A DNA stretch of 38,873 nt, taken from IMG/VR virus record IMGVR_UViG_2734482567_000007; one strand, given 5' to 3'. The notes under the pieces are model-generated. The model was not told where the DNA came from and made no database searches. It saw only the letters and a list, made by a program, of their open reading frames with translations. Origin of the DNA: a virus (Duplodnaviria; Heunggongvirae; Uroviricota; Caudoviricetes). The position numbers and the translations under genes are program-made. Each line of letters starts with the position of its first letter. The stretch's first letter is position 1. This document shows, one piece after another, positions 12,706-38,460 of the stretch.

Positions 12706-12954
12706 ATGGCAACAGATAACCGCTCACTGATGAGCAGTGCCCATCAGAAAGCATTCAGTCTTGCAACACAGTTACCTCCTGAAACCATAAAGGTATGTCG
12801 TGAGTTGACTGAACTCAGCATTGCCGGGGAAATATCCCTGGAACAACTGCATTCGCTGCTGGCAGAGGCTGCCACTGATGAGTTGAGCGGCGTGGACGTG
12901 ATGACTGAAGAGCTTGAGTCCCGAATCAAAAGCATTCTGACAGGTAAAGCATGA
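12706..12954 (+). CDS. Small protein whose C-terminus duplicates the terminase small-subunit C-terminus
   Basis: 82 aa; ...TDELSGVDVMTEELESRIKSILTGKA versus ...TDELRGVDGMSEQIEFRIRQMLLGKA of preceding gene, with matching nucleotide similarity. Confidence 0.45.
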   Translation: MATDNRSLMSSAHQKAFSLATQLPPETIKVCRELTELSIAGEISLEQLHSLLAEAATDELSGVDVMTEELESRIKSILTGKA

Positions 12955-14618
12955 TGAACAAAGCCAGAGAAACGTCGCCTTCACTGATGCAAATGACGCC
13001 TCCCCGCAAAATTGATCTGTCAGGTGAAAAAGCCCTGCTGGGCGTGGATGTGCCGGACAGCCTTGATTTGCCCGGTGATATGCCGGTGTTTCTGGATTAT
13101 CAGGCCCGCTGGTTTGCAGATGAAAGTCAGGTCTGCATCGCGGAGAAATCCCGCCGCACCGGTCTTACCTGGGCGGAAGCCGGGCGTAACGTCATTACTG
13201 CTGCAAAACCGAAGCGTCGTGGTGGCCGCAATGTGTTTTATGTGGGATCAAAGCAGGAGATGGCGCTGGAATATATTTCTGCCTGCGCGCTGTTCTCCCG
13301 TGCCTTTAACCAGCTGGCAGATGCTGATGTGTATGAGCAGACATTCTGGGATCGGGATAAAAAAGAAGAAATTTTGACCTACATGATCCGCTTTCCGAAC
13401 AGTGGATTCAAAATTCAGGCATTGTCTTCCCGTCCGTCAAACCTGCGCGGCCTTCAGGGGGATGTGGTGATTGATGAAGCCGCGTTCCACGAGTCACTGG
13501 ATGAGCTTCTCAAGGCGGCAATGGCGCTCACTATGTGGGGCGCGCGCGTGCGTATTATCTCCACGCATAACGGCGTCGATAATCTGTTTAATCAGTACAT
13601 TCAGGAAGCCCGCGAGGGGCGCAAGGATTACAGCGTCCACCGCATAACCCTGGATGATGCCATTGCGGACGGGCTGTACCGTCGTATCTGTTACGTCACC
13701 GATCAGGAATGGTCACCGGAAAGCGAGCAGAAATGGCGTGATGATCTCTACAAAAACGCCCCGACCCGTGAGGATGCCGACGAGGAATACGGCTGTATCC
13801 CGAAAAAATCCGGCGGTGCCTATATCCCCCACGCGCTTATTGAAATGGCGATGATCCGCGACATCCCGATTCTGACGTTTGAAGCCCCGGACAACTTCAT
13901 CAGCCGTGCCGCATGGCTGCGTGAATCGGAAGTTTTAACCTGGTGTGAAGAACATTTAAAACCGCTTTTAGAGAAATTAAATCCCCGTTCCCGCTTCAGC
14001 TTCGGGGAAGACTTTGCCCGCACCGGTGACCTGTCCTGCTTTGTGCTGCTGGAAATCACCGAATCCCTGGCAAAGCGCGAGGTGTTTCGCGTGGAGCTGC
14101 GCAACCTGCCGTATGCCCAGCAGGAACAGGTGATGATGTACATCCTGACCCGCGTTCCGGCGCTGGTCGGTGCGGCGTTCGACGCCACCGGTAACGGCGG
14201 CTATCTGGCAGAGGCCGCACTGCTGGCCTTTGGCCCGGACATCATCGACTGCGTGATGTTGTCGCCGAAGTGGTACGGCGAGTGGATGCCAAAACTGAAA
14301 GCCGAGTTTGAAGATCAGAATATCCTCGTCGCCCGCCATCAGACCACGCTTGATGATTTGCGCCATGTGAAGGTAGTGAATGGTATCCCGCAAATCGACA
14401 AGGGGCGCACGAAGGACCAGAACGCAACGGCTGCGAACGCCCGCCGCCATGGTGATTTTGCCGTGGCGCTCTGTATGGCAAACCGGGCGTCATACATGGA
14501 GGGCTTCATCCTGGATGAATCAGCCTGTCAGGCGCTACAGGAGCGGTCGCGGGCAATGGAGGGCGGTTATCGTGATGACGATGAGGCATATCATGAATTT
14601 GATCGGGGGGGCTGGTAG
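12951..14618 (+). CDS. Terminase large subunit (Mu gp28-like)
   Basis: 555 aa; position; VVIDEAAF Walker-B-like motif and C-terminal nuclease-like region. Confidence 0.75.
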   Translation: MMNKARETSPSLMQMTPPRKIDLSGEKALLGVDVPDSLDLPGDMPVFLDYQARWFADESQVCIAEKSRRTGLTWAEAGRNVITAAKPKRRGGRNVFYVGSKQEMALEYISACALFSRAFNQLADADVYEQTFWDRDKKEEILTYMIRFPNSGFKIQALSSRPSNLRGLQGDVVIDEAAFHESLDELLKAAMALTMWGARVRIISTHNGVDNLFNQYIQEAREGRKDYSVHRITLDDAIADGLYRRICYVTDQEWSPESEQKWRDDLYKNAPTREDADEEYGCIPKKSGGAYIPHALIEMAMIRDIPILTFEAPDNFISRAAWLRESEVLTWCEEHLKPLLEKLNPRSRFSFGEDFARTGDLSCFVLLEITESLAKREVFRVELRNLPYAQQEQVMMYILTRVPALVGAAFDATGNGGYLAEAALLAFGPDIIDCVMLSPKWYGEWMPKLKAEFEDQNILVARHQTTLDDLRHVKVVNGIPQIDKGRTKDQNATAANARRHGDFAVALCMANRASYMEGFILDESACQALQERSRAMEGGYRDDDEAYHEFDRGGW

Positions 14619-16207
14619 TGGGACGCATCATTGATACTGACGGAAAACCTTTCTCCTTTGACCCGGAGATGCAGAGTGCCGCGCTGGATATTCCGCAGAT
14701 TGCCAGCCGTTATATTGAACATCCGGCTTCGGGTATCACCCCGAACCGGGCGGCGCAGTGCCTTCGCGGGGCTGAACGTGGCGATCTGATTGCCCAGTCC
14801 GATCTGGCCGCTGATATTGAAGAAAAGGACACCCACCTTTTTGCGGAGCTGGGCAAGCGACGTCTTGCCATTCAGGGGGTGCCATGGAGTATTGAGCCGC
14901 CACCGAACGCCAGCGCGAATGAGAAAAAGGACGCGGAAATGCTCGACGAATATCTGCATTCCGCAGACTGGTTTGATGCCATGCTGTTTGACGCCACGGA
15001 TGCCATCCTGAAGGGCTATTCCTGCATGGAAATTGAGCACGGGATGCTCGGTAAAATGCACATCATCCGCGCCATCCGCTGGCGTGACAGCGGGCATTTC
15101 TGCCTTAACCCGGATGATTTGAGCGAACTGCGGCTGCGTGACGGCAGCCATGCCGGGGTGGCGTTTCAGCCCTTTGGCTGGATAGTGCATCAGTCGCGTT
15201 CACGCACCGGCTACGGTGGTGCGACGGGGCTTGTCAGAACGCTTATCTGGCCGTTCATTTTCAAAAACTATTCCGTGCGCGATCTGGCGGAATTTCTGGA
15301 GGTGTACGGCCTGCCAATGAAGGTCGGGAAATACCCGTCCGGGGCAACACCGGAGCAGAAAAGTGCCCTGATGCGGGCGGTGATGGATATCGGGCGACGT
15401 ACAGGCGGGATCATCCCGGCCGGGATGTCGCTGGAGTTTCAGGCGGCAGCGAACGGTCAGGCCGATCCGTTTGAAACCATGATTTCGTGGGGTGAGCGTT
15501 CCATCTCCAAAGCAATACTCGGCGGCACGCTGACCACAGAAGCCGGAGACAAAGGCGCGCGCTCGCTGGGTGAGGTGCATAACGAGGTGCGCCGGGAAAT
15601 CAGGGATTCTGATTTACGCCAGCTGGCTGCAACCCTGAACCGCGATCTGGTGTATCCGCTGTATGCCCTGAACACCGCCCACGCCATTGATATCCGTCGC
15701 CTGCCGCGTATCTGTTTCCAGACCAAAGAACCGGGGGATATCACCAAAATAGCCAGTGCGGTGATGCAACTCAGTGCGGGGATGGATATTCCTGATCCCT
15801 GGGTACGGGATCAGACCGGTATTCCACAGCCCACGCCCGGTGAAGCCATATTCCGTGTCCGTCAGAGCAGTAATGAACCGGCCATGCCTGACAGGGAAAC
15901 GCTACCGGAAAAACAGGAAAAGACAGAACAGACGGCGCTTTCAGCCCGACTGCCGGAAGCGAAAAACACGCCGCGTGATGAACTGGACGACATGGGGGAC
16001 GCGGTGCCTGCCCGCCGCTTACAGGAGGCCATCGATCCGGTGCTGGAGCCGGTCATTGATGTCATCAGAACGCGGGGGCTGGCGGAGGCACTGGCAGACC
16101 TGCCTGCCCTTTACCGTGAAATGGATGATTCCCGCCTGATGACGCTGCTCAGTGATGCCATGTTTGCTGCGGAAATGAAGGGGATGCTGGATGGCTCAGG
16201 GGATTGA
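14618..16207 (+). CDS. Portal protein (Mu gp29-like)
   Basis: 529 aa; position after terminase; size and composition typical of Mu-like portal. Confidence 0.75.
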   Translation: MGRIIDTDGKPFSFDPEMQSAALDIPQIASRYIEHPASGITPNRAAQCLRGAERGDLIAQSDLAADIEEKDTHLFAELGKRRLAIQGVPWSIEPPPNASANEKKDAEMLDEYLHSADWFDAMLFDATDAILKGYSCMEIEHGMLGKMHIIRAIRWRDSGHFCLNPDDLSELRLRDGSHAGVAFQPFGWIVHQSRSRTGYGGATGLVRTLIWPFIFKNYSVRDLAEFLEVYGLPMKVGKYPSGATPEQKSALMRAVMDIGRRTGGIIPAGMSLEFQAAANGQADPFETMISWGERSISKAILGGTLTTEAGDKGARSLGEVHNEVRREIRDSDLRQLAATLNRDLVYPLYALNTAHAIDIRRLPRICFQTKEPGDITKIASAVMQLSAGMDIPDPWVRDQTGIPQPTPGEAIFRVRQSSNEPAMPDRETLPEKQEKTEQTALSARLPEAKNTPRDELDDMGDAVPARRLQEAIDPVLEPVIDVIRTRGLAEALADLPALYREMDDSRLMTLLSDAMFAAEMKGMLDGSGD

Positions 16208-17522
16208 TTTAGGTTATGCCGCCACGCTTCCCTCAAAAGAGACGGTGGCATACTTCCGCGCCAAAGGGGCGCATATCAGCTGGAACTGGTTCGAAACAGA
16301 CGCGGATGTTCATGCCCGCTCATTCACGGCAGCAAAAACGGCACGGCTGGATGTGGTAACCACATTACAGGCCGAAGTGCAGCGGGCCATTGATGAGGGG
16401 ATTTCACAGAAAGAATTTATCCGCACACTGACGCCACGCCTGCAAAAGCTGGGATGGTGGGGAAAGCAGATTGTGGTGGACAGCGACGGTAACGCGGAAG
16501 AAGTGCAGCAGGGCAGTCCCCGTCGTCTGGCGCTGATTTACAACGTGAACACCCGTGTGGCTTACAATGCCGGGCGTTACACGCAGATGATGAACAACAC
16601 GGACACGCATCCGTTCTGGCAGTATGTGGCGGTCATGGACAGCCGTACCCGCCCGTCGCATTCCGCCCTTAACGGTCTGGTATTCCGCTATGACGATCCG
16701 TTCTGGAAAACACACTACCCGCCCAATGGCTGGAACTGCCGCTGCCGTGTGCGGCCATTGTCTCAGGCCCGTCTGGATGCAATGGGGTTATCCGTTTCAT
16801 CCGGTGAGGATCATCTCTCCACCCGCAATGTTGAGGCTGGCGTGGATAAACAGACCGGAGAAGTCAGAGAAATGCCGGTGACCACATATTCAGATGGCGC
16901 CAGAACCATGACACCGGATGTGGGCTGGTCATATAACCCCGGCTCGGCAGCGTTCGGCACAGACCAGGCGCTGATCCGCAAACTGATCGAGGTGAAAAGC
17001 CCGGCGTTACGGGAAATGGTGGTTCAGGAGATGAACAACAGCCCGGAGCGGCAGCTGGCGTTCCGCATCTGGGCAAAAAACATCATGCAGACCCGGCGAG
17101 GTGGTAACGATATCCGCACGCTGGGCTTTATGACTGAAAGCATTGCGCAGGCAGTGGAAAGCCGGACGGGAACGCCACCGGCCCGCCTGCTGGCGATGAG
17201 CGGTAAAAATGTGCTCCATGCGGACAGTGTGAAACATCAGAATGACGGCATCGCTCTGACGCCGGAGGACTTCGGGCGCTTACCGGCAATGCTGGCAAGG
17301 CCAAAAGCGGTACTGTGGGACAAACGGCACAACAATCTGATGTATATCGTGGAAAATCAGGATGGCAGTGTGCAGATTGCCGTTAATGCACCGTACAGTC
17401 TGAAACGTCAGCCCGACAAACTGGATGTGATTGTGAATGCTTACCGGGTTATCAATATGGATAAGCTGAAATCGGATATCCGGGGCGGAATGCTTGAGGT
17501 GCTGGAAGGACAAATTGATTAA
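16191..17522 (+). CDS. Head morphogenesis protein (Mu F-like)
   Basis: 443 aa; motif DSRTRPSHSALNGLVF...NGWNCRCRV typical of F-family minor head proteins. Confidence 0.75.
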   Translation: MAQGIDLGYAATLPSKETVAYFRAKGAHISWNWFETDADVHARSFTAAKTARLDVVTTLQAEVQRAIDEGISQKEFIRTLTPRLQKLGWWGKQIVVDSDGNAEEVQQGSPRRLALIYNVNTRVAYNAGRYTQMMNNTDTHPFWQYVAVMDSRTRPSHSALNGLVFRYDDPFWKTHYPPNGWNCRCRVRPLSQARLDAMGLSVSSGEDHLSTRNVEAGVDKQTGEVREMPVTTYSDGARTMTPDVGWSYNPGSAAFGTDQALIRKLIEVKSPALREMVVQEMNNSPERQLAFRIWAKNIMQTRRGGNDIRTLGFMTESIAQAVESRTGTPPARLLAMSGKNVLHADSVKHQNDGIALTPEDFGRLPAMLARPKAVLWDKRHNNLMYIVENQDGSVQIAVNAPYSLKRQPDKLDVIVNAYRVINMDKLKSDIRGGMLEVLEGQID

Positions 17523-17607
17523 CGGTCAGTGGCGGGGGTCGAACCCGCATACATGATCCACCCGGAGGCAGGCACCGACTTTACCAGTTAAGCGTACACT
17601 GACCGCC
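17523..17607 (-). other. Structured tRNA-like element (T-arm plus acceptor-like stem), not a canonical tRNA
   Basis: Minus strand shows GTCAGTG...CACTGAC 7-8 bp terminal helix enclosing GCGGG-TTCGACC-CCCGC T-arm-like hairpin; no acceptable anticodon arm found. Confidence 0.3.
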
Positions 17608-17643
17608 TGTTTATTTTATATTCATCCTTTATGCGGAGGCAAT

Positions 17644-18117
17644 ATGTCATCCATTGATGCAGCTGTCGTTGTTGACGTTACGCGTCTCCAGCGAGTGTTT
17701 GCCCGGCTTCAGTTTGTGGGCGGCGGAAAAGACCTGGCCCGCAGTGTGGCGGCGAGTCTTCTGTCATCGTCAGAAATGGCGTTTGAGCAGGAAAAAGAGC
17801 CGGATGGTGAACGCTGGCATGACTGGTCAGATCCTTACCGTGAGTGGCGTACCCGTAAGGGATACACGCCCGGCAAAATCCTGACGCTGAACGGCGATCT
17901 GGCCCGCCGCCTGACCACGGATTATGGCGATACCTGGGCGCTGATTGGATCAAATGAACCTTATGCAGCCATTCATCAGTGGGGTGGCCTGCCTGGTATG
18001 CCACCGGGACCGGCGGCCATTGGCGCACGTCCGTATATGGGCTTTGATCAGGTGGCAGAACAGGAGATCATGGACGAAATCAGAAAACGCTTTAAAAAGG
18101 CCACAGAAACGCCGTAA
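17644..18117 (+). CDS. Virion morphogenesis protein (Mu G-like)
   Basis: 157 aa; GGAGG RBS; position between F and I as in Mu. Confidence 0.6.
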   Translation: MSSIDAAVVVDVTRLQRVFARLQFVGGGKDLARSVAASLLSSSEMAFEQEKEPDGERWHDWSDPYREWRTRKGYTPGKILTLNGDLARRLTTDYGDTWALIGSNEPYAAIHQWGGLPGMPPGPAAIGARPYMGFDQVAEQEIMDEIRKRFKKATETP

Positions 18118-18294
18118 TGGTTTAAGGTATGCAAACGTATTACCTTACCCCCTTCAGGCGCGTGTCGTGATTTTCTAACCTGTATTTAACGGGCTTTAAA
18201 ATCTGCGTGAAGCGCCTTTCTCATTCCCCCCCTGTCAGCACTTTCTGAAGTCCCGCAAAACCAGCCCCAAAAATACCCGGCTTATGCTGCCGGT
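18118..18294 (+). promoter_or_regulatory. G-I intergenic region: candidate late promoter and, by synteny, candidate centrally located strong gyrase site
   Basis: 177-bp noncoding region at the genome centre between G and I homologues; contains CCCCC/CCCCCCC runs also seen upstream of the endolysin gene. Confidence 0.35.
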
Positions 18295-19428
18295 ATGAAG
18301 ACAGAAAATCACCCAAAAGACGCAAATCGCCCCTCCGGTTTAGCCGTGCTTTCAGCTTCGCTGACTGCATCCGGCGACGGATGGTGTCAGTTACTGCCAG
18401 CCGGTCGGGTAAAGGCCCGTGACGGTCGCCCGGAAAAACCGACTGAAGGCTGGCTGATTAACGAATCCGCCTGTAACCGGATGAAAGCCGGGCTTTCCGC
18501 CCTGCATCAGCCGTTACTGATTGATTATGACCATCACTCCGTGAATGCGCAGAAAAACGGATTCAAGGCTATTGCTGCAGGATGGGTTAAGCCGGAAAAC
18601 ATCGAATGGCGTGAGGGTCAGGGGATTTTCATTAAACCTGAATGGACACCACAGGCACAAAAACATATTGATGACCGTGAATATGCCTATCTGTCTGCAT
18701 ATATGCATTATTTCGCTGACACCGGGGAACCCTACCTGTTGCGCATGGCTTCCCTGACGAATGATCCGGGTATTACGGGTATGAACCCTGTCGCGGCACT
18801 CAGTGCTGATGATCTCTATGTCGTTTCCCCTTCTCAGGAGCAATCCCCCATGAATGAGCAATTACGCCAGTTGCTGACGGCGCTCGGTCTGACCGTGGCT
18901 GACGGTGACGAATTTACACCGGAACTGGGCACGGCGGCGCTGTCTGCCCTTACCGGGATCAAAACCCGTGCGGATGCGCACGACACCCTGAAAACGCAGG
19001 TTGCCAGCCTGTCGGCAGAACTGGAAACCGCAAAAGGCACACCAACTGGCGGCACTATTGATCTGACGAAATATGTGCCCGTTGAGACGTATAACGCCCT
19101 GCGTACCGAATATGCCGCGCTGTCGGCACAACACGGCAGCACCACGCTGGAGCAGTTGCTGGATAAGGCCGAGTCCGAAGGACGCATTTTCAAAAGCGAA
19201 CGCGGATACATGGAAGGACTCGGACAACAGATTGGCGTCGCGGCACTTTCTGCACAGCTTGACGCCCGCCAGCCGGTTGCGGCTCTGACCACTCTTCAGA
19301 CCGACACCGTAACCGTGCCGGATAAAAAGACCGCCACCGCTGTGCTGTCGGCTGAAGATATCGCCGCCGCACGTCTGTTGGGTAAAACCGAAGCCGAGTT
19401 CCTGAAAATGAAAGAGGAAATGCAATAA
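18295..19428 (+). CDS. Head maturation protease/scaffold (Mu I-like)
   Basis: 377 aa; position before major head protein; Ala/Leu-rich coiled C-terminal half typical of scaffold domain. Confidence 0.7.
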   Translation: MKTENHPKDANRPSGLAVLSASLTASGDGWCQLLPAGRVKARDGRPEKPTEGWLINESACNRMKAGLSALHQPLLIDYDHHSVNAQKNGFKAIAAGWVKPENIEWREGQGIFIKPEWTPQAQKHIDDREYAYLSAYMHYFADTGEPYLLRMASLTNDPGITGMNPVAALSADDLYVVSPSQEQSPMNEQLRQLLTALGLTVADGDEFTPELGTAALSALTGIKTRADAHDTLKTQVASLSAELETAKGTPTGGTIDLTKYVPVETYNALRTEYAALSAQHGSTTLEQLLDKAESEGRIFKSERGYMEGLGQQIGVAALSAQLDARQPVAALTTLQTDTVTVPDKKTATAVLSAEDIAAARLLGKTEAEFLKMKEEMQ

Positions 19429-20375
19429 TGCCTACCCCGATTACACCGGCGATGATCACCGCCCTGATGACGGGCTACCGTTCTGATTTTCAGGCCGGGA
19501 TGTCCATGGCTCCGTCGCAGTACCAGAAAATTGCGATGACCGTGCCGTCCACCTCGAAATCCAACACCTACGGCTGGCTGGGGCAGTTCCCGCAGTTCCG
19601 TGAGTGGATCGGCTCCCGCGTCATCGAGAAGATGAAAGCCTATGGCTACGCCATCGTGAACAAAACCTTTGAAGGCACCGTTGCCATTAGCCGCGATGAC
19701 TTTGAAGACGACAATCTCGGCATCTACTCCCCGTTATTCCAGGAAATGGGTCGTGCCGCTGCGGCACAACCGGATGAACTGGTCTTTGCTGCACTGCGTG
19801 ATGGTCTGAATGCGGCCTGCTATGACGGCCAGAACTTCTTTGATACCGAACACCCTGTTTACCCCAAAGTGGATGGCTCCGGTGATGCACAGATGGTCAG
19901 CAATATGTTTGTGGCAAAAACCGGCTCTGTCGGTGCACAGGCGGATTACAGCGGCCCGGCCTGGTATCTGCTTGACTGCTCCCGCGCGGTAAAACCGCTG
20001 ATTTATCAGGATCGCCGCAAAGCCGAACTGGTTGCCCAGACAAAAGTCGATGAAGGCCGTGCGTTTACTGATAACGAGTTTGTGTTCGGTGCTTCCGCCC
20101 GTCGCAATGTGGGCTACGGCTTCTGGCAGATGGCCTACATGATGCAGTCACCGCTGACGCTGGATGCGCTGTGGCACGGCTGGTCAGCCATGCGTGACTT
20201 TAAGGCTGACGGTGGCCGCAAACTCGGCATCAAACCCACCCATATTGTTGTCCCCACCTCGCTGGAAAAACAGGCGGTGCAGCTGCTGGAGCGCGAGCTG
20301 TTCGCAGACGGTAACGCCACAGTCTCTAACGAGATGAAGGGCAAGCTGGAGCTGGTTGTCGCGGATTATCTGTAA
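19428..20375 (+). CDS. Major head subunit (Mu T-like)
   Basis: 315 aa; position and size; ATGA overlap with I stop. Confidence 0.75.
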   Translation: MPTPITPAMITALMTGYRSDFQAGMSMAPSQYQKIAMTVPSTSKSNTYGWLGQFPQFREWIGSRVIEKMKAYGYAIVNKTFEGTVAISRDDFEDDNLGIYSPLFQEMGRAAAAQPDELVFAALRDGLNAACYDGQNFFDTEHPVYPKVDGSGDAQMVSNMFVAKTGSVGAQADYSGPAWYLLDCSRAVKPLIYQDRRKAELVAQTKVDEGRAFTDNEFVFGASARRNVGYGFWQMAYMMQSPLTLDALWHGWSAMRDFKADGGRKLGIKPTHIVVPTSLEKQAVQLLERELFADGNATVSNEMKGKLELVVADYL

Positions 20376-34764: not shown

Positions 34765-36819
34765 TTACGCGTTATTCACTTCCACCACGATACTGTCAAT
34801 CAGTACCGGGTAAGTCGCATTTTTAGTGATATCGGTCACGCGCAACTTGTCTGCCGTAAACGTGCCGACCGGAGACTGCGACAGCATGAATGGTGTCCCG
34901 TCCTTACCATCAATGACCGGCGTCACCTCAATACTGTTGTTACCGGCAAAACGGAAGCCCAGCGTATGCCATTCGTTATTAAATGCGCCGAATGACCCCA
35001 GCTTCGTGTTCTGCGCCGTGTTTCCTTTGTGATACATCACGTTAAGGTCTGTGGCATCGCTCTGTACGTAGAACGATGCCAGCAGGTTATGACCGGCATT
35101 TCCTTCCAGAGTAACCCCTTGCGGCAGGGCAGAAACCGGCCAGTACAGCGCCAGTGCGTACTGATTAGCCGTAAGCGCGCCATCGAGTTTAAAACGACAA
35201 CTGACAAGACCACCTTTACCCAGCAGGTCCGCACCATTACCAGCATCATGCTCAAGGTACCAGGGGGCTCTTCCTGTTTCCTTGGTCAGTTTCATTGCCT
35301 TACCCCCGCTGGCTCCGGCATCATCCACGATTTGAGCCTTGCCACCTCCGGCAGCCCAACCCTGTGGTGTCAACCGTCCTTCAGACTCAGATGCCCGGTA
35401 AGCAAATAGCGTACTCATCGTCGTGGTGTCTGCGGGTGGCGTGGACGGTTTTGATGGTGTATCAGGTGACGGCTTCTCATCCGGTGGTGTCACGGTCTGC
35501 CCACGCATCAGTTCAGCCGTGCGCCCTGCATGGAGCATAATAGCTGAGGCCAGACGGTCTGAAATGACGCCCCTGCGTGCCCATGAGCTGAAATGGCTGT
35601 CACGCTGTGTCGAAACAAAACTGCCCTGGGTTCGGGATGCTGCACCGTAATACCCGACAGCCACAATATCCGGGTCTTCCGCCGGAGCATTCGTTGGCGT
35701 GCTCTGTCCATTCTCATCCGTCAGGAACGGTACAAAGAAAATTTTCTGTGCTTCCTTGCCTTTGTAGCCACCGTATACTGCCTCATATTTATCGGTGCCA
35801 GCGTTTTTCCAGTAATACGTGGTATCACCGCAAATCCACGGCACCGTGGTGGCATTTCCACTCACGCACTGCGCAGCAAGCGGAGCCAGGTCAGTTCTGA
35901 ACTGCTGAACCATGGCCGTGAATAAACTATTATGCTGCTGGCTTCCTGAGGCAAGGTCTGCCTCTCCCTGCATCCAGACCACAGCCAGAAGTTTGTTTTT
36001 CGGGTTTTTCGCCAGCGCGACTTTGGTGCGGCTTACCAGGTCCTGATACAGAGGTTTACCGGCCCCCCAGCGTGAAGAATCAGCGGAAGCACCGCTGGCC
36101 TCACTGAATGAGCCGTCGGCTCCAGTGGTGAATGCTGACCCGCCACGACAACAGGGCACCAGAAGTATCCCGGCATTCTGTGGGATATAGGGAAGCAGTT
36201 TTTTGGCAATATGCAACCCCTGACCGACAGTCCCGTACTGGCCTTTTGCCAGATCAGCTTTCGGGTGGTTTATCCCGCTCATATCCTGAACATCATGCAG
36301 GCAGTGGTCTGCCGGAATGATGTCGTTGTATGTACACGACGTACCGTTGGGCGTTACCGTACTGCGGCGTGCCAGTTGCTTAATGCGTGGGTCCGGGCGG
36401 TCAAACGAATCCGGTAACGGCAGCCCCTCGCCGTAGGCCATGCCATTTGACTGACCCGCGAGAATGACAACAAAGTAATATTCCGGCTCTGAACTGCTGC
36501 CATTCGTGCTACCGGAAGGCCCGGCGTTATCCGGTGCATTCCAGTCGGAGGGCGTGAGCGTTCCGGCCACGTCAGATGTGATTGGAATGATGCCAGTCAC
36601 GCCTGAACTGGTGATTTCTGCACTGGGATTACCGGATACCGGCATTACCCATAATGGCTCTTTCGTGCTGAAGCGGATCACGCAGTCTGCGAAGGTGATC
36701 CCCCCTTTATTACCCGAAGGGCGGAAAGGGCTTTCAATAAATGCCACCGTGCCACCGGCAACCTTGACTGAAAACTCTCCGGGCATGGCGGAGAGCATTT
36801 TCCACTTGGAGTCTGACAT
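34765..36819 (-). CDS. SGNH/sialate-O-acetylesterase-like carbohydrate esterase with C-terminal lectin-like domain (NanS-p-like)
   Basis: 684 aa; YYFVVILAGQSNGMAYGEG esterase motif; Pro/Ser/Thr-rich linker; C-terminal beta-rich domain; inserted between gin and com. Confidence 0.5.
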   Translation of the reverse strand: MSDSKWKMLSAMPGEFSVKVAGGTVAFIESPFRPSGNKGGITFADCVIRFSTKEPLWVMPVSGNPSAEITSSGVTGIIPITSDVAGTLTPSDWNAPDNAGPSGSTNGSSSEPEYYFVVILAGQSNGMAYGEGLPLPDSFDRPDPRIKQLARRSTVTPNGTSCTYNDIIPADHCLHDVQDMSGINHPKADLAKGQYGTVGQGLHIAKKLLPYIPQNAGILLVPCCRGGSAFTTGADGSFSEASGASADSSRWGAGKPLYQDLVSRTKVALAKNPKNKLLAVVWMQGEADLASGSQQHNSLFTAMVQQFRTDLAPLAAQCVSGNATTVPWICGDTTYYWKNAGTDKYEAVYGGYKGKEAQKIFFVPFLTDENGQSTPTNAPAEDPDIVAVGYYGAASRTQGSFVSTQRDSHFSSWARRGVISDRLASAIMLHAGRTAELMRGQTVTPPDEKPSPDTPSKPSTPPADTTTMSTLFAYRASESEGRLTPQGWAAGGGKAQIVDDAGASGGKAMKLTKETGRAPWYLEHDAGNGADLLGKGGLVSCRFKLDGALTANQYALALYWPVSALPQGVTLEGNAGHNLLASFYVQSDATDLNVMYHKGNTAQNTKLGSFGAFNNEWHTLGFRFAGNNSIEVTPVIDGKDGTPFMLSQSPVGTFTADKLRVTDITKNATYPVLIDSIVVEVNNA

Positions 36820-36904
36820 CGTCTTTTCTGCCTGTTTCTGAATTAAACAGAGTCAGAATAGCGACCGCTGAAAAATATGTGTTTTGCGGAAATTCAAAAA
36901 AGCG

Positions 36905-37477
36905 TCACGGTACTTTTGGTGACGGAGCTGGTGAGGCAGGAAAATAACGATAAAGGGTGGAAAGGCCAATATCAAATATCAGTGCGATTTGTTTACGGGA
37001 CTCGCCATTAGCCAGCAAACGGGCGATTTGCTCCCGCTCTTTCTCTGTCAGTTTCTGAGGTCTGCCGCCATGACGCCCCTGAGCACGGGCAGCAGCAAGA
37101 CCCGCGCGTGTACGTTCAATAATGAGTTCCCGCTCCATTTCCGCCAGCGCGCCCATTATATGGAAAAAGAAACGTCCCATGGGAGTGGATGTATCAATAT
37201 TGTCCGTAATGCTGCGGAAGTTAACGCCGCGTTGCCGGAGTTCTTCTGTTAAAAGGACAAGGTGCTGCATACTGCGTCCAAGGCGATCCAGTTTCCAGAC
37301 CAGCAGGGTATCCCCTGGCCGGAGTCGCTTTAATGCGCGTTTAAGTCCGGGACGCTCCCTTGTCTTACCGCTTATTCTGTCTTCGAAAAACAGCTCACAT
37401 CCTGCACATTCCAGCGCATTTCTTTGTAGCGCCGTATTCTGGTCATTTGTTGACACCCTGATATACCCAATCAGCAT
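36905..37477 (-). CDS. gin: Gin/Hin/Pin/Cin-family serine DNA invertase
   Basis: 190 aa; near-identical N-terminus to Mu Gin (MLIGYIRVSTNDQNT...GDTLLVWKLDRLGRSM...GRFFFHIMGALAEMERELIIERT); adjacent to gix site. Confidence 0.9.
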   Translation of the reverse strand: MLIGYIRVSTNDQNTALQRNALECAGCELFFEDRISGKTRERPGLKRALKRLRPGDTLLVWKLDRLGRSMQHLVLLTEELRQRGVNFRSITDNIDTSTPMGRFFFHIMGALAEMERELIIERTRAGLAAARAQGRHGGRPQKLTEKEREQIARLLANGESRKQIALIFDIGLSTLYRYFPASPAPSPKVP

Positions 37478-37523
37478 ACGATTTCCTTATTATAAAAAGC
37501 CGGAATTGTCGCATGAGGAATAA

Positions 37524-37907
37524 AACAGAGTTAATCCTGGCTTTCCTGAAAACCTCGGTTTACGGGAAACGGTAAACAGGGCGGCGAATGCCCTGCCATC
37601 GGACGGCACCGCCGTTGCCGCGAACAGGCTGGCAAATGCCCACACAATTAATGGTGTTCCCTTTGACGGGACGCAGGATATCACTATCTCATCAGGAACA
37701 GTAACCGCCATAAGACTGGGGTCGGTGACCGCACATATGCCCGGAACATGGGAAAGCTGGGATCTGAATCTGGGGGGCGGCAATGTTCTTACCGGAATTA
37801 AAGTACAGGATGTCGGTAAGAATACGGCAGATAACGTCGGCGGCGTGTATTACCGGCCGTTGCAGTATCTGTTAAATGGAGCATGGGTGACGGCTGCAAG
37901 TATATAA
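37524..37907 (+). CDS. Alternative tail-fibre C-terminal cassette (no start codon; expressed only after inversion)
   Basis: Open frame from IR into variable region ending at 37907; shares ...NGVPFDGTQDI with the minus-strand cassette and then diverges. Confidence 0.55.
   Translation, partial: NRVNPGFPENLGLRETVNRAANALPSDGTAVAANRLANAHTINGVPFDGTQDITISSGTVTAIRLGSVTAHMPGTWESWDLNLGGGNVLTGIKVQDVGKNTADNVGGVYYRPLQYLLNGAWVTAASI
37543..37568. other. gix-type inversion crossover site (left)
   Basis: TTCCTGAAAACCTCGGTTTACGGGAA, matching the Mu gix/hix core AAAACCTCGGTTTAC with imperfect dyad symmetry; 65 bp from gin start. Confidence 0.7.
37555..37624 (+). repeat. Left inverted repeat of invertible segment
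   Basis: 70 bp with one mismatch to the reverse complement of 38804-38873; encodes the shared fibre segment ...RAANALPSDGTAVAAN... Confidence 0.8.
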
Positions 37908-37938
37908 TGATATTCAGAAGGCCTTCCGGCCTTCTTTA

Positions 37939-38460
37939 TTACTGTGGCTGCTCAGGCCATTTAATGGCGTTAAATTCAGCTTCTGTTTTAATGGCGGGTA
38001 GTTCCATTTTCTTCACCTGACTGATGTATGCCATCCATTGGGTAAGTGCTGCTCTGTCTTCATCGCTGATGGTGCCCAGTTGTAGCTCCGTTCTCCAGTC
38101 ATTAATTTTTTCATATGCCTGATTAAGATATGACTGGCGCATTGCTTCCAGTTTTCTTGCGTAGTTAACCGGAATACGGGAGATTATGCCATTATCAAAC
38201 TTCCAGTTTCCTGAAATATCCGTGCCTTCAGGGAGTTCATCGACCTCAACCACAGAAAACCCCGCAGGATACAGCGCCGAGGCGTCCTGTGATATTGAGC
38301 AGATAACGCCGCTGTCAGGTGTTATGCAAAGTTTATATTTTTTGGTGAATAATGGCAGGGATTCGTAGAAATCCTTACCATCTTCACTCTGGAAATACTG
38401 AACATTATTACCATATGGCATATTTTCAGGATAATAACGGGTTATATTTTTTAGTTCCAT
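37939..38460 (-). CDS. Tail-fibre assembly (chaperone) protein, U/Tfa family
   Basis: 173 aa; GGAGG RBS; immediately downstream of minus-strand fibre cassette; typical Tfa C-terminal region. Confidence 0.75.
   Translation of the reverse strand: MELKNITRYYPENMPYGNNVQYFQSEDGKDFYESLPLFTKKYKLCITPDSGVICSISQDASALYPAGFSVVEVDELPEGTDISGNWKFDNGIISRIPVNYARKLEAMRQSYLNQAYEKINDWRTELQLGTISDEDRAALTQWMAYISQVKKMELPAIKTEAEFNAIKWPEQPQ

What the first reader, a model, noticed from the sequence alone, without database searches (positions are those of the whole stretch)
17523..17607. tRNA-like structured element between the F and G head genes
On the minus strand a 7-8 bp terminal helix (GTCAGTG / CACTGAC) encloses a perfect T-arm-like hairpin GCGGG-TTCGACC-CCCGC with the TTCGA loop signature, and U8-like T follows the 5' strand. 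I could not fold a credible anticodon arm, so it is not a standard tRNA. On the plus strand the same helix is followed by a T-rich tract, so it may act as a terminator or processing site between head genes, or be a tRNA remnant or mimic.
Basis: seen in the sequence. Interest (0 to 1): 0.5.

Follow-up and report, generated by a model that had tools for sequence, protein, structure and literature searches.

The report
Anticodon-less tRNA mimic gene in Mu-like prophage
Between two head genes of a Mu-like E. coli prophage, on the opposite strand, lies a small conserved gene for an RNA shaped like a tRNA but with a capped hairpin in place of the anticodon, one of an apparently undescribed family carried by Mu-like phages and small phage-satellite-like islands, function unknown.

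Summary
On the minus strand, 17521-17607 folds into a cloverleaf. It has a terminal helix of 11 bp rather than 7, a D-arm with U8/A14/G18G19, a perfect T-arm (GCGGG-UUCGACC-CCCGC) and a 5-nt variable loop. Where the anticodon arm should be there is a kinked hairpin capped by a UCCG tetraloop.

ARAGORN finds nothing. Rfam tRNA scores 31 bits (cut-off 29), and only in the sensitive scan. RefSeq annotates the locus as "tRNA-OTHER".

It is not a remnant. At least 26 distinct relatives show strong covariation in every helix. Within its class the element is 94-97% identical where the flanking genes are 71-73% identical. It always lies antisense between F and G in Mu-like phages whose F proteins are 54-100% identical. 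Mu and one relative have an empty site.

A conserved -10 (TAAAAT) sits 4-6 nt upstream of the first paired base. Positions -1:73 and -2:74 pair, and no CCA is encoded.

There are three hairpin classes. Small integrase/Icd/RepA/Mor islands carry arrays of two or three.

Best reading: an independently transcribed, probably leaderless, non-decoding tRNA mimic that acts as a decoy or ligand for a protein that binds the tRNA body. That function is inferred, not shown. The plus-strand terminator idea is not supported.

The parts
17521..17607 (-). Whole tRNA-like RNA, numbered -4 to 76 in tRNA numbering. The core that the Rfam tRNA model matched is 17524-17603.
   Evidence: Family model R1 scores 95.7 bits and gives the only hit in the window. 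Rfam RF00005 scores 31 bits. PGAP annotates 'tRNA-OTHER' at the same position in identical prophages.
17597..17607 (-). 5' strand of the terminal helix, GGCGGUCAGUG: positions -4 to -1 plus acceptor positions 1-7.
   Evidence: Pairs with 17531-17521. Acceptor pairs, and the -1:73 and -2:74 pairs, covary across the family.
17521..17531 (-). 3' strand of the terminal helix, CACUGACCGUU: positions 66-72, paired C73, then G74, U75, U76. No CCA is encoded. U75 and U76 are the complement of the AA of the F stop codon TAA.
17576..17596 (-). U8, A9 and the D-arm: CGCUU / AACUGGUA / AAG(U)CG, with A14, G18 and G19.
   Evidence: Rfam alignment. D-stem covariation, for example U:A to C:G and C:G to G:U.
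17554..17574 (-). Hairpin at the anticodon-arm position: basal UG/CA, a 1x2 internal loop, 5 bp CUGCC/GGUGG, and a UCCG tetraloop (17563-17566). No 7-nt anticodon loop.
   Evidence: The basal pairs covary: CG/UA and GC/AU. Relatives have UUCG, GUAA, GUAC, UCAA and other loops.
17549..17553 (-). 5-nt variable loop UGUAU. Its last U could form the Levitt-type pair with A15.
   Evidence: Columns are conserved in alignments A2, A4 and A5. The tertiary pair itself is inferred.
17532..17548 (-). T-arm: GCGGG / UUCGACC / CCCGC.
   Evidence: 99.2% of cells are paired, with C:G to U:A and G:C to A:U exchanges.
17613..17618 (-). -10-like hexamer TAAAAT. It lies 5 nt upstream of the first paired base, G at position -4 (17607).
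   Evidence: Promoter scan. TAAAAT, TACAAT or TAGGAT is conserved 4-6 nt upstream of the helix in 14 of 15 Mu-type loci tabulated (3 nt in L092, where the helix was counted to 14 bp).
17637..17642 (-). -35-like hexamer TTGCCT, with an 18-nt spacer. It is the complement of the Shine-Dalgarno region of gene G (GGAGGCAA), so its conservation is confounded by that signal.
16191..17522 (+). Gene F (Mu gp30-like head morphogenesis protein). Its stop codon abuts the RNA gene.
17644..18117 (+). Gene G (Mu gp31-like virion morphogenesis / neck protein).

Best explanation
The region 17521-17607 (minus strand) is a functional gene for a small RNA of about 87 nt. The RNA keeps the tRNA body but cannot decode. 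Together with its own sigma-70-type promoter it forms a cassette of about 115 bp. The cassette is inserted, moron-like and antisense, between the stop codon of F and the ribosome-binding site of G in a Mu-like prophage.

Shown here:
- A cloverleaf supported by covariation.
- Invariant tRNA core and elbow bases: U8, A14, G18G19 and the UUCGA T-loop.
- A kinked, tetraloop-capped hairpin in place of the anticodon arm.
- A base-paired position 73, with pairing continuing to -2:74 (to -4:76 in this class).
- No encoded CCA.
- Purifying selection on the element.
- Syntenic conservation, plus empty sites in relatives.
- Three hairpin classes, and arrays of two or three copies in small satellite-like islands.

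Inferred:
- Transcription starts at the first paired base, so there is no 5' leader for RNase P to remove.
- The RNA folds into an L-shape with a closed acceptor end and is not aminoacylated.
- It works by molecular mimicry. It occupies, titrates or recruits a protein that recognises the tRNA core or elbow rather than the anticodon or the CCA end.
- Because it sits in accessory positions of prophages and satellites and has an exchangeable hairpin, the most likely role is in phage-host or phage-phage conflict. One example would be a decoy or inhibitor of a tRNA-directed nuclease or modifying toxin, produced in the lysogen or early in infection.

My probabilities:
- Functional minus-strand tRNA-mimic RNA gene: about 0.9.
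- Non-decoding: about 0.95.
- Leaderless, closed end, uncharged: about 0.55.
- Decoy or ligand role in conflict: about 0.25-0.3.

The single confidence figure given for this explanation (0.55) is for the statement taken as a whole up to and including 'works by mimicry of the tRNA body'. It is not a figure for the specific conflict or decoy role.
For: Structure and detection:
- The minimum-free-energy fold is a cloverleaf.
- Rfam tRNA scores 31 bits, with the anticodon arm skipped as a 24-nt local gap.
- PGAP annotates 'tRNA-OTHER'.

Family and covariation:
- R1 gives 51-96 bits for 27 hits, 26 of them distinct.
- 91.8% of cells are paired, against 78.4% in shuffles. 16 of 23 pairs change on both sides. 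Slid controls give 34-58%.
- RNAalifold independently recovers the terminal helix, including -1:73 and -2:74, and the T-arm.

Selection:
- The element is 94-97% identical where the F and G flanks are 71-73% identical (L008 and L020).

Synteny and insertion:
- It is always antisense between F and G, with F at 54-100% amino-acid identity.
- In Mu, F and G overlap.
- In L095 the F stop is followed directly by GGAGGCAATATG.

No anticodon:
- The hairpins are 16-33 nt long.
- Loops are UUCG, UCCG, GUAA, GUAC, UCAA, UCAG, UAAC, UAUC, or 5-18 nt.

Promoter and ends:
- TTGCCT-18-TAAAAT.
- The -10 lies 4-6 nt upstream of the first paired base in 14 of 15 Mu-type loci tabulated (3 nt in L092); none was identified in L096.
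- -1:73 is paired in 23 of 26 sequences and -2:74 in 22 of 26, with CG/AU and GC/UA exchanges.

Strand:
- 19 G-U cells against 6 A-C cells.

Mobile-element accessory context:
- An island carrying integrase, Ash, Icd-like, RepA, SSB, PerC, Mor and then two copies, next to tRNA-Ile.
- PerC, Mor, three copies, then a Bro-N protein, next to yicG-ligB-gmk-spoT.
- Different classes occur in phages whose G genes are 92-94% identical, which indicates cassette exchange.
Against: - There are no expression data. The transcription start, the 3' end, RNase P processing and CCA addition are all untested.
- No terminator follows the gene in this window. A hairpin follows it only in the Leminorella version.
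- Conservation of the -35 is confounded by the Shine-Dalgarno sequence of G.
- Single-sequence folding energy is unremarkable.
- Alignments A4 and A5 were fitted to the model's structure, which inflates the paired percentages somewhat.
- No binding partner or associated protein gene was identified. The rest of the prophage shows nothing obviously tRNA-related.
- The decoy role is argued from context only.
- G-1:C73 in the Mu-type copies is also the tRNA-His hallmark, so processing at -1 followed by charging cannot be excluded.
Confidence: 0.55

Rival explanations
1. It is a processed, CCA-tailed and aminoacylated tRNA-like RNA. RNase P cuts at -1 or +1, exonucleases trim the trailer, the host CCA enzyme adds CCA, and an anticodon-independent synthetase charges it. 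With G-1:C73 that synthetase would be HisRS. The charged RNA would then serve a non-decoding purpose, such as titrating the synthetase or EF-Tu or donating an amino acid.
For: - The body is a complete tRNA body.
- G-1:C73 is present in this copy and in most Mu-type copies. In E. coli that pair is the main HisRS determinant and shifts RNase P cleavage to -1 (established knowledge, not tested here).
- Downstream copies in satellite arrays have no promoter of their own and must be cut out of a longer transcript.
Against: - Position 73 and acceptor pairs 1-4 vary across the family: C, U or A at position 73. No single acceptor identity is conserved.
- -2:74 also pairs and covaries. This is pointless if position 74 is replaced by CCA.
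- The -10 is placed so that transcription starts at the first paired base.
- No family member encodes CCA.
Confidence: 0.15
2. It is a cis-acting antisense or transcriptional-interference element. Its conserved purpose would be to fire a promoter against the late lys-to-G operon, or to make an RNA antisense to the F 3' end. That would damp leaky late expression in lysogens. The tRNA shape would merely stabilise the transcript.
For: - The antisense orientation is invariant in all Mu-type loci.
- The promoter overlaps the ribosome-binding site of G.
- No terminator follows, so transcripts should run antisense into F.
Against: - The same RNA family occurs in satellite-like islands, co-oriented with its neighbours and antisense to nothing.
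- Conservation is concentrated on tRNA tertiary-interaction bases and on helices that covary. It is not concentrated on sequence complementary to F or G.
- Relatives, including Mu, manage without it.
Confidence: 0.1
3. It is a plus-strand signal in the late mRNA, either an intrinsic terminator/attenuator or an RNase processing site between F and G.
For: On the plus strand the outer helix is followed, 4 nt later, by UUUAUUUUAU. The plus-strand RNA can also form the outer helix and the T-arm complement.
Against: - No terminator-like site is detected.
- The helix encloses an 80-nt multibranch, and the U-tract is not adjacent to it.
- The T-tract is the complement of the conserved minus-strand -10.
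- G-U pairs become A-C mismatches on the plus strand: 19 cells against 6.
- F and G overlap or abut in phages without the element.
- Terminating before G, an essential morphogenesis gene of the same operon, would be costly (inference).
Confidence: 0.05
4. It is a decaying tRNA pseudogene, or the leftover half of an integration site, with no function.
For: - ARAGORN rejects it.
- Rfam with default filters misses it.
- There is no anticodon loop.
- Phage tRNA-Ile(UAU) genes share its 3' half, which suggests descent from a real phage tRNA.
Against: - Compensatory changes occur in all helices.
- The element is 94-97% identical where the flanks are 71-73% identical.
- Stable UNCG/GNRA-type caps sit in place of the loop.
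- The promoter position is conserved.
- It is retained at one site across phages whose F proteins are only 54% identical.
- Three classes are maintained side by side in arrays.
- Mu-type phages transpose and do not integrate at tRNA genes (established knowledge).
Confidence: 0.05

Closest known systems
Canonical tRNA (Rfam RF00005), including phage-encoded tRNAs
   Same: - Ends at the acceptor helix; normal, unpermuted topology.
- U8, A14 and G18G19 in the D-loop.
- A 5-nt variable loop.
- A 5-bp T-stem with a UUCGANY loop.
- It scores just above the Rfam cut-off.
- It shares its 3' half with phage tRNA-Ile(UAU) genes.
   Different: - No 7-nt anticodon loop and no anticodon: a tetraloop-capped hairpin of 16-33 nt instead.
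- Position 73 is paired and the helix continues to -2:74 or further.
- No CCA is encoded.
- It is probably leaderless.
- ARAGORN rejects all members.
- Other members fall below the Rfam cut-off.
YrlA, a bacterial Y RNA with a tRNA-like domain (Rfam RF02553)
   Same: It is a bacterial or phage non-coding RNA that reproduces the tRNA L-shape and the D/T tertiary contacts. It lacks both an anticodon loop and a free CCA end, and it has a kink in the stem that corresponds to the anticodon stem. Its partner for the tRNA-like part is unknown (bioRxiv 10.1101/312249, read).
   Different: - YrlA is circularly permuted. Its acceptor stem is a closed loop, and its 5'/3' ends extend the anticodon stem into a Ro60/Rsr-binding module.
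- Here the ends are at the acceptor helix and there is no such module.
- No YrlA match was found at E<=10.
- No rsr gene is present in the prophage.
tmRNA tRNA-like domain
   Same: Acceptor and T-arm mimicry without an anticodon.
   Different: - tmRNA has a G3:U70 alanine identity pair, an unpaired 3' CCA end, a reduced D-arm, a tag reading frame and the partner protein SmpB (established knowledge).
- Here position 3:70 is C:G, the D-arm is full, and there is no tag.
- ARAGORN finds no tmRNA.
C4 (P1/P7) and CI (P4) immunity RNAs (Rfam RF01695). The comparison is from memory.
   Same: They are small cloverleaf-like RNAs of temperate phages and a satellite, and their tRNA-like shape makes them RNase P substrates. 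The islands that carry arrays of the present RNA also encode Icd-like and Ash-family proteins, which are typical of P1/P4-type immunity regions.
   Different: - Those RNAs act through loops complementary to targets in their own operon.
- Here the class 1 and class 2 loops are structural tetraloops.
- There is no Rfam C4 match.
- The arrays lie about 5 kb from the icd-like genes.
Other non-decoding tRNA look-alikes: T4 species 1 and 2 stable RNAs, Bacillus cereus 'tRNA-Other', the vtRNA part of MHV68 TMERs, mascRNA, plant-virus 3' tRNA-like structures, and the leaderless tRNAs of Nanoarchaeum. All comparisons are from memory.
   Same: The tRNA shape is reused for something other than decoding. 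In viruses it is usually used to engage host tRNA enzymes. In Nanoarchaeum, transcription starts at position +1, so no RNase P is needed.
   Different: None has this combination: a full tRNA core, a tetraloop-capped anticodon-position hairpin, a paired position 73/74 region and a promoter abutting the helix. None shows a distribution limited to Mu-like prophages and small satellite-like islands of enterobacteria.

Membership tests
tRNA (RF00005) | Covariance-model score at or above the curated cut-off | tested here: inconclusive
   - 31.0 bits against a cut-off of 29, and only with permissive filters.
- Nothing in the default gathering scan.
- Relatives score 26.9 bits or have no hit.
tRNA (RF00005) | Anticodon arm: 5-bp stem plus a 7-nt loop with U33 and an anticodon | tested here: not met
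   - The Rfam alignment skips the arm as a 24-nt gap.
- The region folds as a hairpin with a 4-nt UCCG loop.
- Family loops are UUCG, GUAA, GUAC and others, or 5-18 nt.
- ARAGORN finds no tRNA.
tRNA (RF00005) | T-arm with the GTTCRANYC-type loop, and a D-loop with G18G19, A14 and U8 | tested here: met
   GCGGG-UUCGACC-CCCGC; D-loop AACUGGUA; U8 and A9. These bases are invariant across the family.
tRNA (RF00005) | 7-bp acceptor stem, unpaired discriminator base and a 3' CCA (encoded in all E. coli tRNA genes, or added after transcription) | tested here: not met
   - The 7 bp are present.
- Position 73 is paired in 23 of 26 sequences and position 74 in 22 of 26.
- In this copy the helix is 11 bp.
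- No CCA is encoded.
- Post-transcriptional CCA addition cannot be tested here.
tRNA (RF00005) | Aminoacylation and use in decoding | not testable with these tools
   Needs acid-gel or periodate assays. Decoding is excluded by inference from the missing anticodon loop.
YrlA / Y RNA | Ro60/Rsr-binding stem formed by the 5'/3' ends, permuted tRNA-like domain, rsr gene nearby | tested here: not met
   - No RF02553 match at E<=10.
- The topology is unpermuted (compared with the description read).
- No rsr gene in the prophage annotation.
tmRNA | Alanine identity pair G3:U70 and a tag-peptide reading frame | tested here: not met
   ARAGORN reports no tmRNA. Position 3:70 is C:G.
Intrinsic terminator (plus strand) | Compact G+C-rich hairpin immediately followed by a U-run | tested here: not met
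   No terminator-like site on either strand in 17200-17900. The helix encloses about 80 nt, and 4 nt separate it from the T-run.
Phage 'moron' (independently expressed insertion between conserved genes) | Absent from the same junction in related phages, and carries its own promoter (and terminator) | tested here: met
   - Empty junctions in Mu and in L095.
- A conserved promoter-like site.
- A terminator hairpin is seen only in the Leminorella-type copy.
- Promoter activity itself has not been tested.

The most novel reading that the evidence does not exclude
These RNAs may form a previously undescribed class of RNA-only conflict modules of temperate mobile elements. They would be leaderless, uncharged tRNA-body mimics with a closed end. 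The conserved elbow and core would dock onto a tRNA-directed enzyme of the host or of a competitor, such as a tRNA nuclease or modifier used in anti-phage defence, a colicin/CDI-type tRNase, or a tRNA-processing enzyme. The exchangeable hairpin, in three classes stacked as arrays in satellites, would tune specificity. This would be the tRNA counterpart of RNA-based anti-CRISPR repeats.
Probability: 0.25. Interest if true: 0.85.

Novelty: new variant of a known kind. Interest (0 to 1): 0.6.

Why it matters
Phage tRNAs are currently explained in two ways: as codon-usage aids, or as replacements for host tRNAs destroyed by defence nucleases. A conserved RNA that keeps the whole tRNA body but deliberately lacks an anticodon, and probably lacks a chargeable end, fits neither explanation. 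It points to a use of tRNA shape as a ligand or decoy.

The family is easy to study:
- About 4% of complete E. coli genomes carry a member, including the Sp18 prophage of O157:H7 Sakai.
- The gene is about 90 nt long.
- Natural empty-site phages exist as controls.

There is also an annotation issue. RefSeq lists these loci as 'tRNA-OTHER', and in one class as 'tRNA-Tyr'. That inflates tRNA counts and suggests a decoding capacity that the sequence does not support.

Tried and rejected
- **ARAGORN** on the window and on 20 related loci found no tRNA or tmRNA at any family member.
- **Rfam at gathering thresholds with default filters** found nothing in the whole window. The weak STnc480 match (17.6 bits against a cut-off of 72) is chance.
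- **Single-sequence folding z-scores** were uninformative on both strands.
- **Alternative registers giving a 7-nt anticodon loop** were sought by hand. None exists. The PGAP 'tRNA-Tyr' call in the island copy requires an out-of-register stem, and the region folds as 6 bp plus a GUAC loop.
- **Histidine identity (G-1:C73)** was considered and judged not to be a conserved feature of the family. Position 73 is C, U or A, and position 74 also pairs.
- **YrlA-type architecture** was rejected on topology.
- **Similarity of the hairpin to the 16S rRNA 3' end and to the tRNA-Asp anticodon stem** was noticed by eye, from remembered sequences, and was not pursued. It is not conserved in other class members.
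- **Close host tRNA relatives:** blastn of the element against 5,426 E. coli genomes returned only family members.
- **Cultured phage genomes and plasmids** hold the family only where a Mu-like phage is inserted.
- **Eight literature searches** found no description of this element. A remembered link between Mu repression and the tRNA-like function of SsrA (Ranquet et al. 2001) could not be retrieved and remains an untested lead.
Full report
**What is in the sequence**

On the minus strand:
- GUCAGUG (17603-17597) pairs with CACUGAC (17531-17525).
- These strands enclose a perfect T-arm, GCGGG/UUCGACC/CCCGC (17548-17532).
- U8 lies at 17596.

Three things can be added.
- There is a normal D-arm (17594-17576). 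Its stem is CGCUU/AAG(U)CG and its loop is AACUGGUA, carrying A14 and G18G19.
- The 'missing' anticodon arm is a 21-nt hairpin (17574-17554). It has two basal pairs, a 1x2 internal loop with an extra A on the 3' side, and five pairs CUGCC/GGUGG. It is capped by a UCCG tetraloop (17566-17563).
- The terminal helix does not stop at 7 bp. G-1:C73, C-2:G74, G-3:U75 and G-4:U76 extend it to 11 bp, 17607-17597 with 17531-17521.

No CCA is encoded. The minimum-free-energy fold of the minus strand is a four-way cloverleaf.

**What the detectors say**

- ARAGORN reports nothing in the window.
- Rfam at curated thresholds with default filters also reports nothing.
- With permissive filters on 351 nt, the tRNA model matches 17524-17603 on the minus strand at 31.0 bits (cut-off 29, E = 9.4e-5). 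It aligns the acceptor, D-arm and T-arm and skips the anticodon arm as a 24-nt gap.
- NCBI's pipeline annotates the identical sequence as 'tRNA-OTHER' in many RefSeq E. coli genomes.
- Single-sequence folding energies are no better than shuffles: z = -1.12 on the minus strand and -0.96 on the plus strand.

The comparative evidence below overrides it.

**Context**

The window is a Mu-like prophage, 95% identical to the 'inserted Mu-like phage' in two Stx-phage records. Its gene order is typically Mu-like.

The late genes run on the plus strand:

| Gene | Coordinates |
|---|---|
| terminase | 12951-14618 |
| portal | 14618-16207 |
| F | 16191-17522 |
| G | 17644-18117 |
| protease | 18295-19428 |
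| gpT | 19428-20375 |

The RNA gene is therefore antisense to the late operon.

In phage Mu itself F and G overlap by 4 nt and there is no such element. In one relative (L095, G 65% identical) the F stop codon is followed directly by GGAGGCAATATG. That is the same ribosome-binding site and start as in the window. The cassette from 17523 to about 17635 is thus an insertion between the F stop and the Shine-Dalgarno sequence of G, in the manner of a phage moron.

**A conserved family**

Pattern scans of viral, metagenome and genome collections recovered the element in many contigs. A covariance model built from 11 variants (R1) recovered 27 matches of 51-96 bits in the 22 sources used for alignment A5. 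26 of these sequences are distinct.

- In every Mu-type locus the element lies between F and G homologues and antisense to them. The F proteins there are 54-100% identical to the window's F.
- All four helices covary. 91.8% of pair cells are standard pairs, against 78.4% in column shuffles (0 of 500 shuffles reach the observed value). Partners slid by 1-3 columns give 34-58%. 16 of 23 pairs show changes on both sides.
- These alignments were fitted to the model, which flatters the numbers. However, RNAalifold on its own recovers the terminal helix and the T-arm with the same exchanges.
- Within the window's class, the element is 94-97% identical in two phages whose F and G flanks are only 71-73% identical.

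This is purifying selection (or very recent transfer) acting on the RNA, not decay.

173 of 5,426 complete E. coli genomes carry a close copy. 230 carry some member of the family, including the Sp18 prophage of O157:H7 Sakai.

**No anticodon anywhere in the family**

The hairpin at the anticodon position is 16-33 nt long. Its caps fall into two groups:
- Four-base loops: UUCG, UCCG, UCAA, UCAG, UAAC, UAUC, GUAC and GUAA. Several of these are classic stable UNCG or GNRA tetraloops.
- Loops of 5-18 nt in longer hairpins.

Its two basal pairs covary, and an extra A or a small asymmetric loop on the 3' strand is common to all types.

Three hairpin classes can be distinguished, each linked to small differences in the D-stem and variable loop. 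Phages with nearly identical G genes (92-94%) carry different classes, so the cassette is exchanged by recombination.

The one copy that RefSeq calls 'tRNA-Tyr' folds as 6 bp plus a GUAC loop. The call is spurious.

**The same RNAs in other mobile elements**

- In E. coli JNEC-KY179 an island of about 8 kb lies next to tRNA-Ile. It encodes an integrase, Ash-family and Icd-like proteins, a RepA-family helicase, SSB, PerC and a Mor-family activator, and it ends with two copies.
- In a metagenome contig the order is PerC, Mor, three tandem copies (one of each class, L059 1128-1437), then a Bro-N protein. Next come the chromosomal genes yicG-ligB-gmk-spoT.
- In the islands the copies are co-oriented with their neighbours. 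Antisense placement is therefore not intrinsic to the function of the RNA.
- The family is absent from cultured-phage records and from plasmids, except where a Mu-like phage is inserted.

**Ends of the RNA**

A sigma-70-like site, TTGCCT-18-TAAAAT, lies on the minus strand at 17642-17613. The -35 is the complement of the Shine-Dalgarno sequence of G, so its conservation proves little. The -10 is in spacer DNA and is conserved as TAAAAT, TACAAT or TAGGAT.

In 14 of 15 Mu-type loci tabulated this hexamer ends 4-6 nt before the first paired base of the terminal helix (3 nt in L092, where the helix was counted to 14 bp). In one, L096, no hexamer of this type was identified. A start 5-7 nt after the -10 therefore falls on that base, which here is G at 17607 or 17606.

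Across the family:
- -1:73 is paired in 23 of 26 sequences (GC, UA, GU, AU).
- -2:74 is paired in 22 of 26 sequences (CG, AU, UA, UG).

My inference is that the primary transcript has no single-stranded 5' leader. Its first bases are locked into a helix with positions 73-76. The RNA has neither a free discriminator base nor a CCA end, so it is probably not aminoacylated.

This step is not shown. G-1:C73 is also the tRNA-His signature. Downstream copies in the arrays must be excised from a longer transcript, so RNase P processing of some members remains possible.

No terminator follows the gene in the window. A hairpin follows it only in the Leminorella-type copy.

**Strand and the plus-strand alternative**

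- In the family's helices there are 19 G-U cells, which are valid only on the minus strand. Only 6 A-C cells would be G-U on the plus strand.
- The invariant bases are the tRNA tertiary-interaction set of the minus strand.
- The T-rich tract that suggested a plus-strand terminator is the complement of the -10 hexamer.
- The terminator scan is negative.

The terminator or processing-site reading is therefore not supported.

**How it most likely works**

Shown:
- It is a selected, structured RNA gene on the minus strand.
- It keeps the tRNA core and elbow.
- It has replaced the decoding end by a capped, kinked hairpin.

Inferred:
- It is transcribed on its own, from the helix start, probably in the lysogen or early in infection, because it opposes the late operon.
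- It folds into an L-shape and cannot decode.

The conserved part is what body-recognising tRNA partners read. Such partners include RNase P, the CCA enzyme, T-loop and D-loop modification enzymes, ribosomal elbow contacts and some tRNA-directed toxins. The parts read by synthetases and anticodon nucleases are either variable or absent.

Three further observations bear on function:
- It sits in accessory slots of prophages and satellite-like islands.
- Its hairpin is exchangeable.
- Its classes are stacked in arrays.

Taken together, the reading I favour is a tRNA-body mimic that titrates, blocks or recruits such a protein in phage-host or phage-phage conflict. I put this at only about 0.25-0.3. 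By contrast, 'functional non-decoding tRNA mimic' stands at about 0.9.

Rivals, given in detail in the rival-explanations section:
- a processed and charged tRNA-like RNA (about 0.15);
- an antisense or transcription-interference device (about 0.1);
- a plus-strand signal (about 0.05);
- a pseudogene (about 0.05).

**Comparison with known systems**

- It works like a tRNA look-alike but fails two defining tRNA features that were tested here: the anticodon loop, and an unpaired position 73 followed by CCA. It should not be filed as a tRNA.
- YrlA Y RNAs share the lack of an anticodon loop and of a free CCA end, and a kinked anticodon-position stem. They are circularly permuted and carry a Ro-binding module. 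Neither applies here, and Rfam gives no YrlA match.
- tmRNA, the C4/CI immunity RNAs, T4 species 1 and 2 RNAs, B. cereus tRNA-Other, herpesviral vtRNAs, mascRNA and plant-virus tRNA-like structures are functional analogies only. Most of these are cited from memory.
- Eight literature searches found no description of this family.

**Verdict**

This is a real and conserved feature. It has been noticed by annotation pipelines only as 'tRNA-OTHER', and it appears to be undescribed as a family. It is best classed as a new variant of a known kind, the non-decoding tRNA mimic. Its interest is moderate to high because the RNA is small, common in well-studied E. coli strains, has natural empty-site controls, and could reveal a new use of tRNA mimicry by temperate phages and their satellites.

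Noticed in passing
L001 2996-3077 (E. coli JNEC-KY179, NZ_AP045176.1 744506-744587): RefSeq annotates this family member as 'tRNA-Tyr'. The supposed GUA anticodon lies in a hairpin that folds as 6 bp plus a GUAC tetraloop, and no in-register 5-bp stem with a 7-nt loop exists. The isotype call looks spurious.
   Followed up: yes
L059 1128-1437; L050 3842-4036; L053 2090-2294; L001 2992-3196; island in L063 1507-9668: Tandem arrays of two or three family members, one per hairpin class, lie at the distal end of small islands. The islands encode integrase, Ash, Icd-like, RepA helicase, SSB, PerC and Mor (plus Bro-N in one). They are integrated next to tRNA-Ile or next to yicG-ligB. They are probably phage satellites. 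The first copy has its own -10-like site and a 5+5-bp terminal helix with an internal loop.
   Followed up: partly
L095 about 1185-1203; L037 (phage Mu) 1890-1893: Natural empty sites. In L095 the F stop TAA is followed at once by GGAGGCAATATG. In Mu, F and G overlap by 4 nt. Both are useful controls for deletion experiments.
   Followed up: yes
L014 3775-3867; L017 1307-1384 and 2487-2565; L030 789-866: Unrelated phage tRNA clusters contain tRNA-Ile(UAU) genes whose 3' halves (TATGTGGGTTCGACCCCCACCAC) match the family. One of these genes is 93 nt with a long extra arm. They may resemble the ancestral tRNA. ARAGORN also reports a 'tRNA-???' with a four-base anticodon (tgtt) in L017.
   Followed up: no
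L044 118-198 and 752-834; L056 638-719: More divergent members on short metagenome contigs, with UUCG and GUAA loops. The L044 copy at 752-834 has a terminal helix that continues for about 12-13 bp. The surrounding genes could not be identified.
   Followed up: partly
window 18118-18294: A 177-bp gap between G and the protease gene. In Mu the corresponding G-I gap carries the annotated central gyrase cut site (NC_000929 17879-17880) and, from memory, the late promoter for the I operon. It was not examined here.
   Followed up: no
window 34765-38460, compared with L064 35106-38830: The window has a 684-aa ORF, a 190-aa ORF and a 173-aa ORF, all on the minus strand. In the otherwise near-identical FORC_069 prophage, a DUF6645 protein of the same length (684 aa) and the recombinase lie on the plus strand downstream of the tail genes. 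The right end therefore seems rearranged or inverted between the two. DUF6645 sits where Mu has mom.
   Followed up: no
window 17555-17558: The 3' strand of the class-1 hairpin contains GATC (a Dam site) within the conserved GGAUCA. It is also present in the island class-1 copies (CUGAUCA). Its significance is unknown and it may be incidental.
   Followed up: no
L030 2011-2064: A weak YrlA (Y RNA-like) match of 27.6 bits, against a cut-off of 69, in a phage tRNA cluster unrelated to the window.
   Followed up: no
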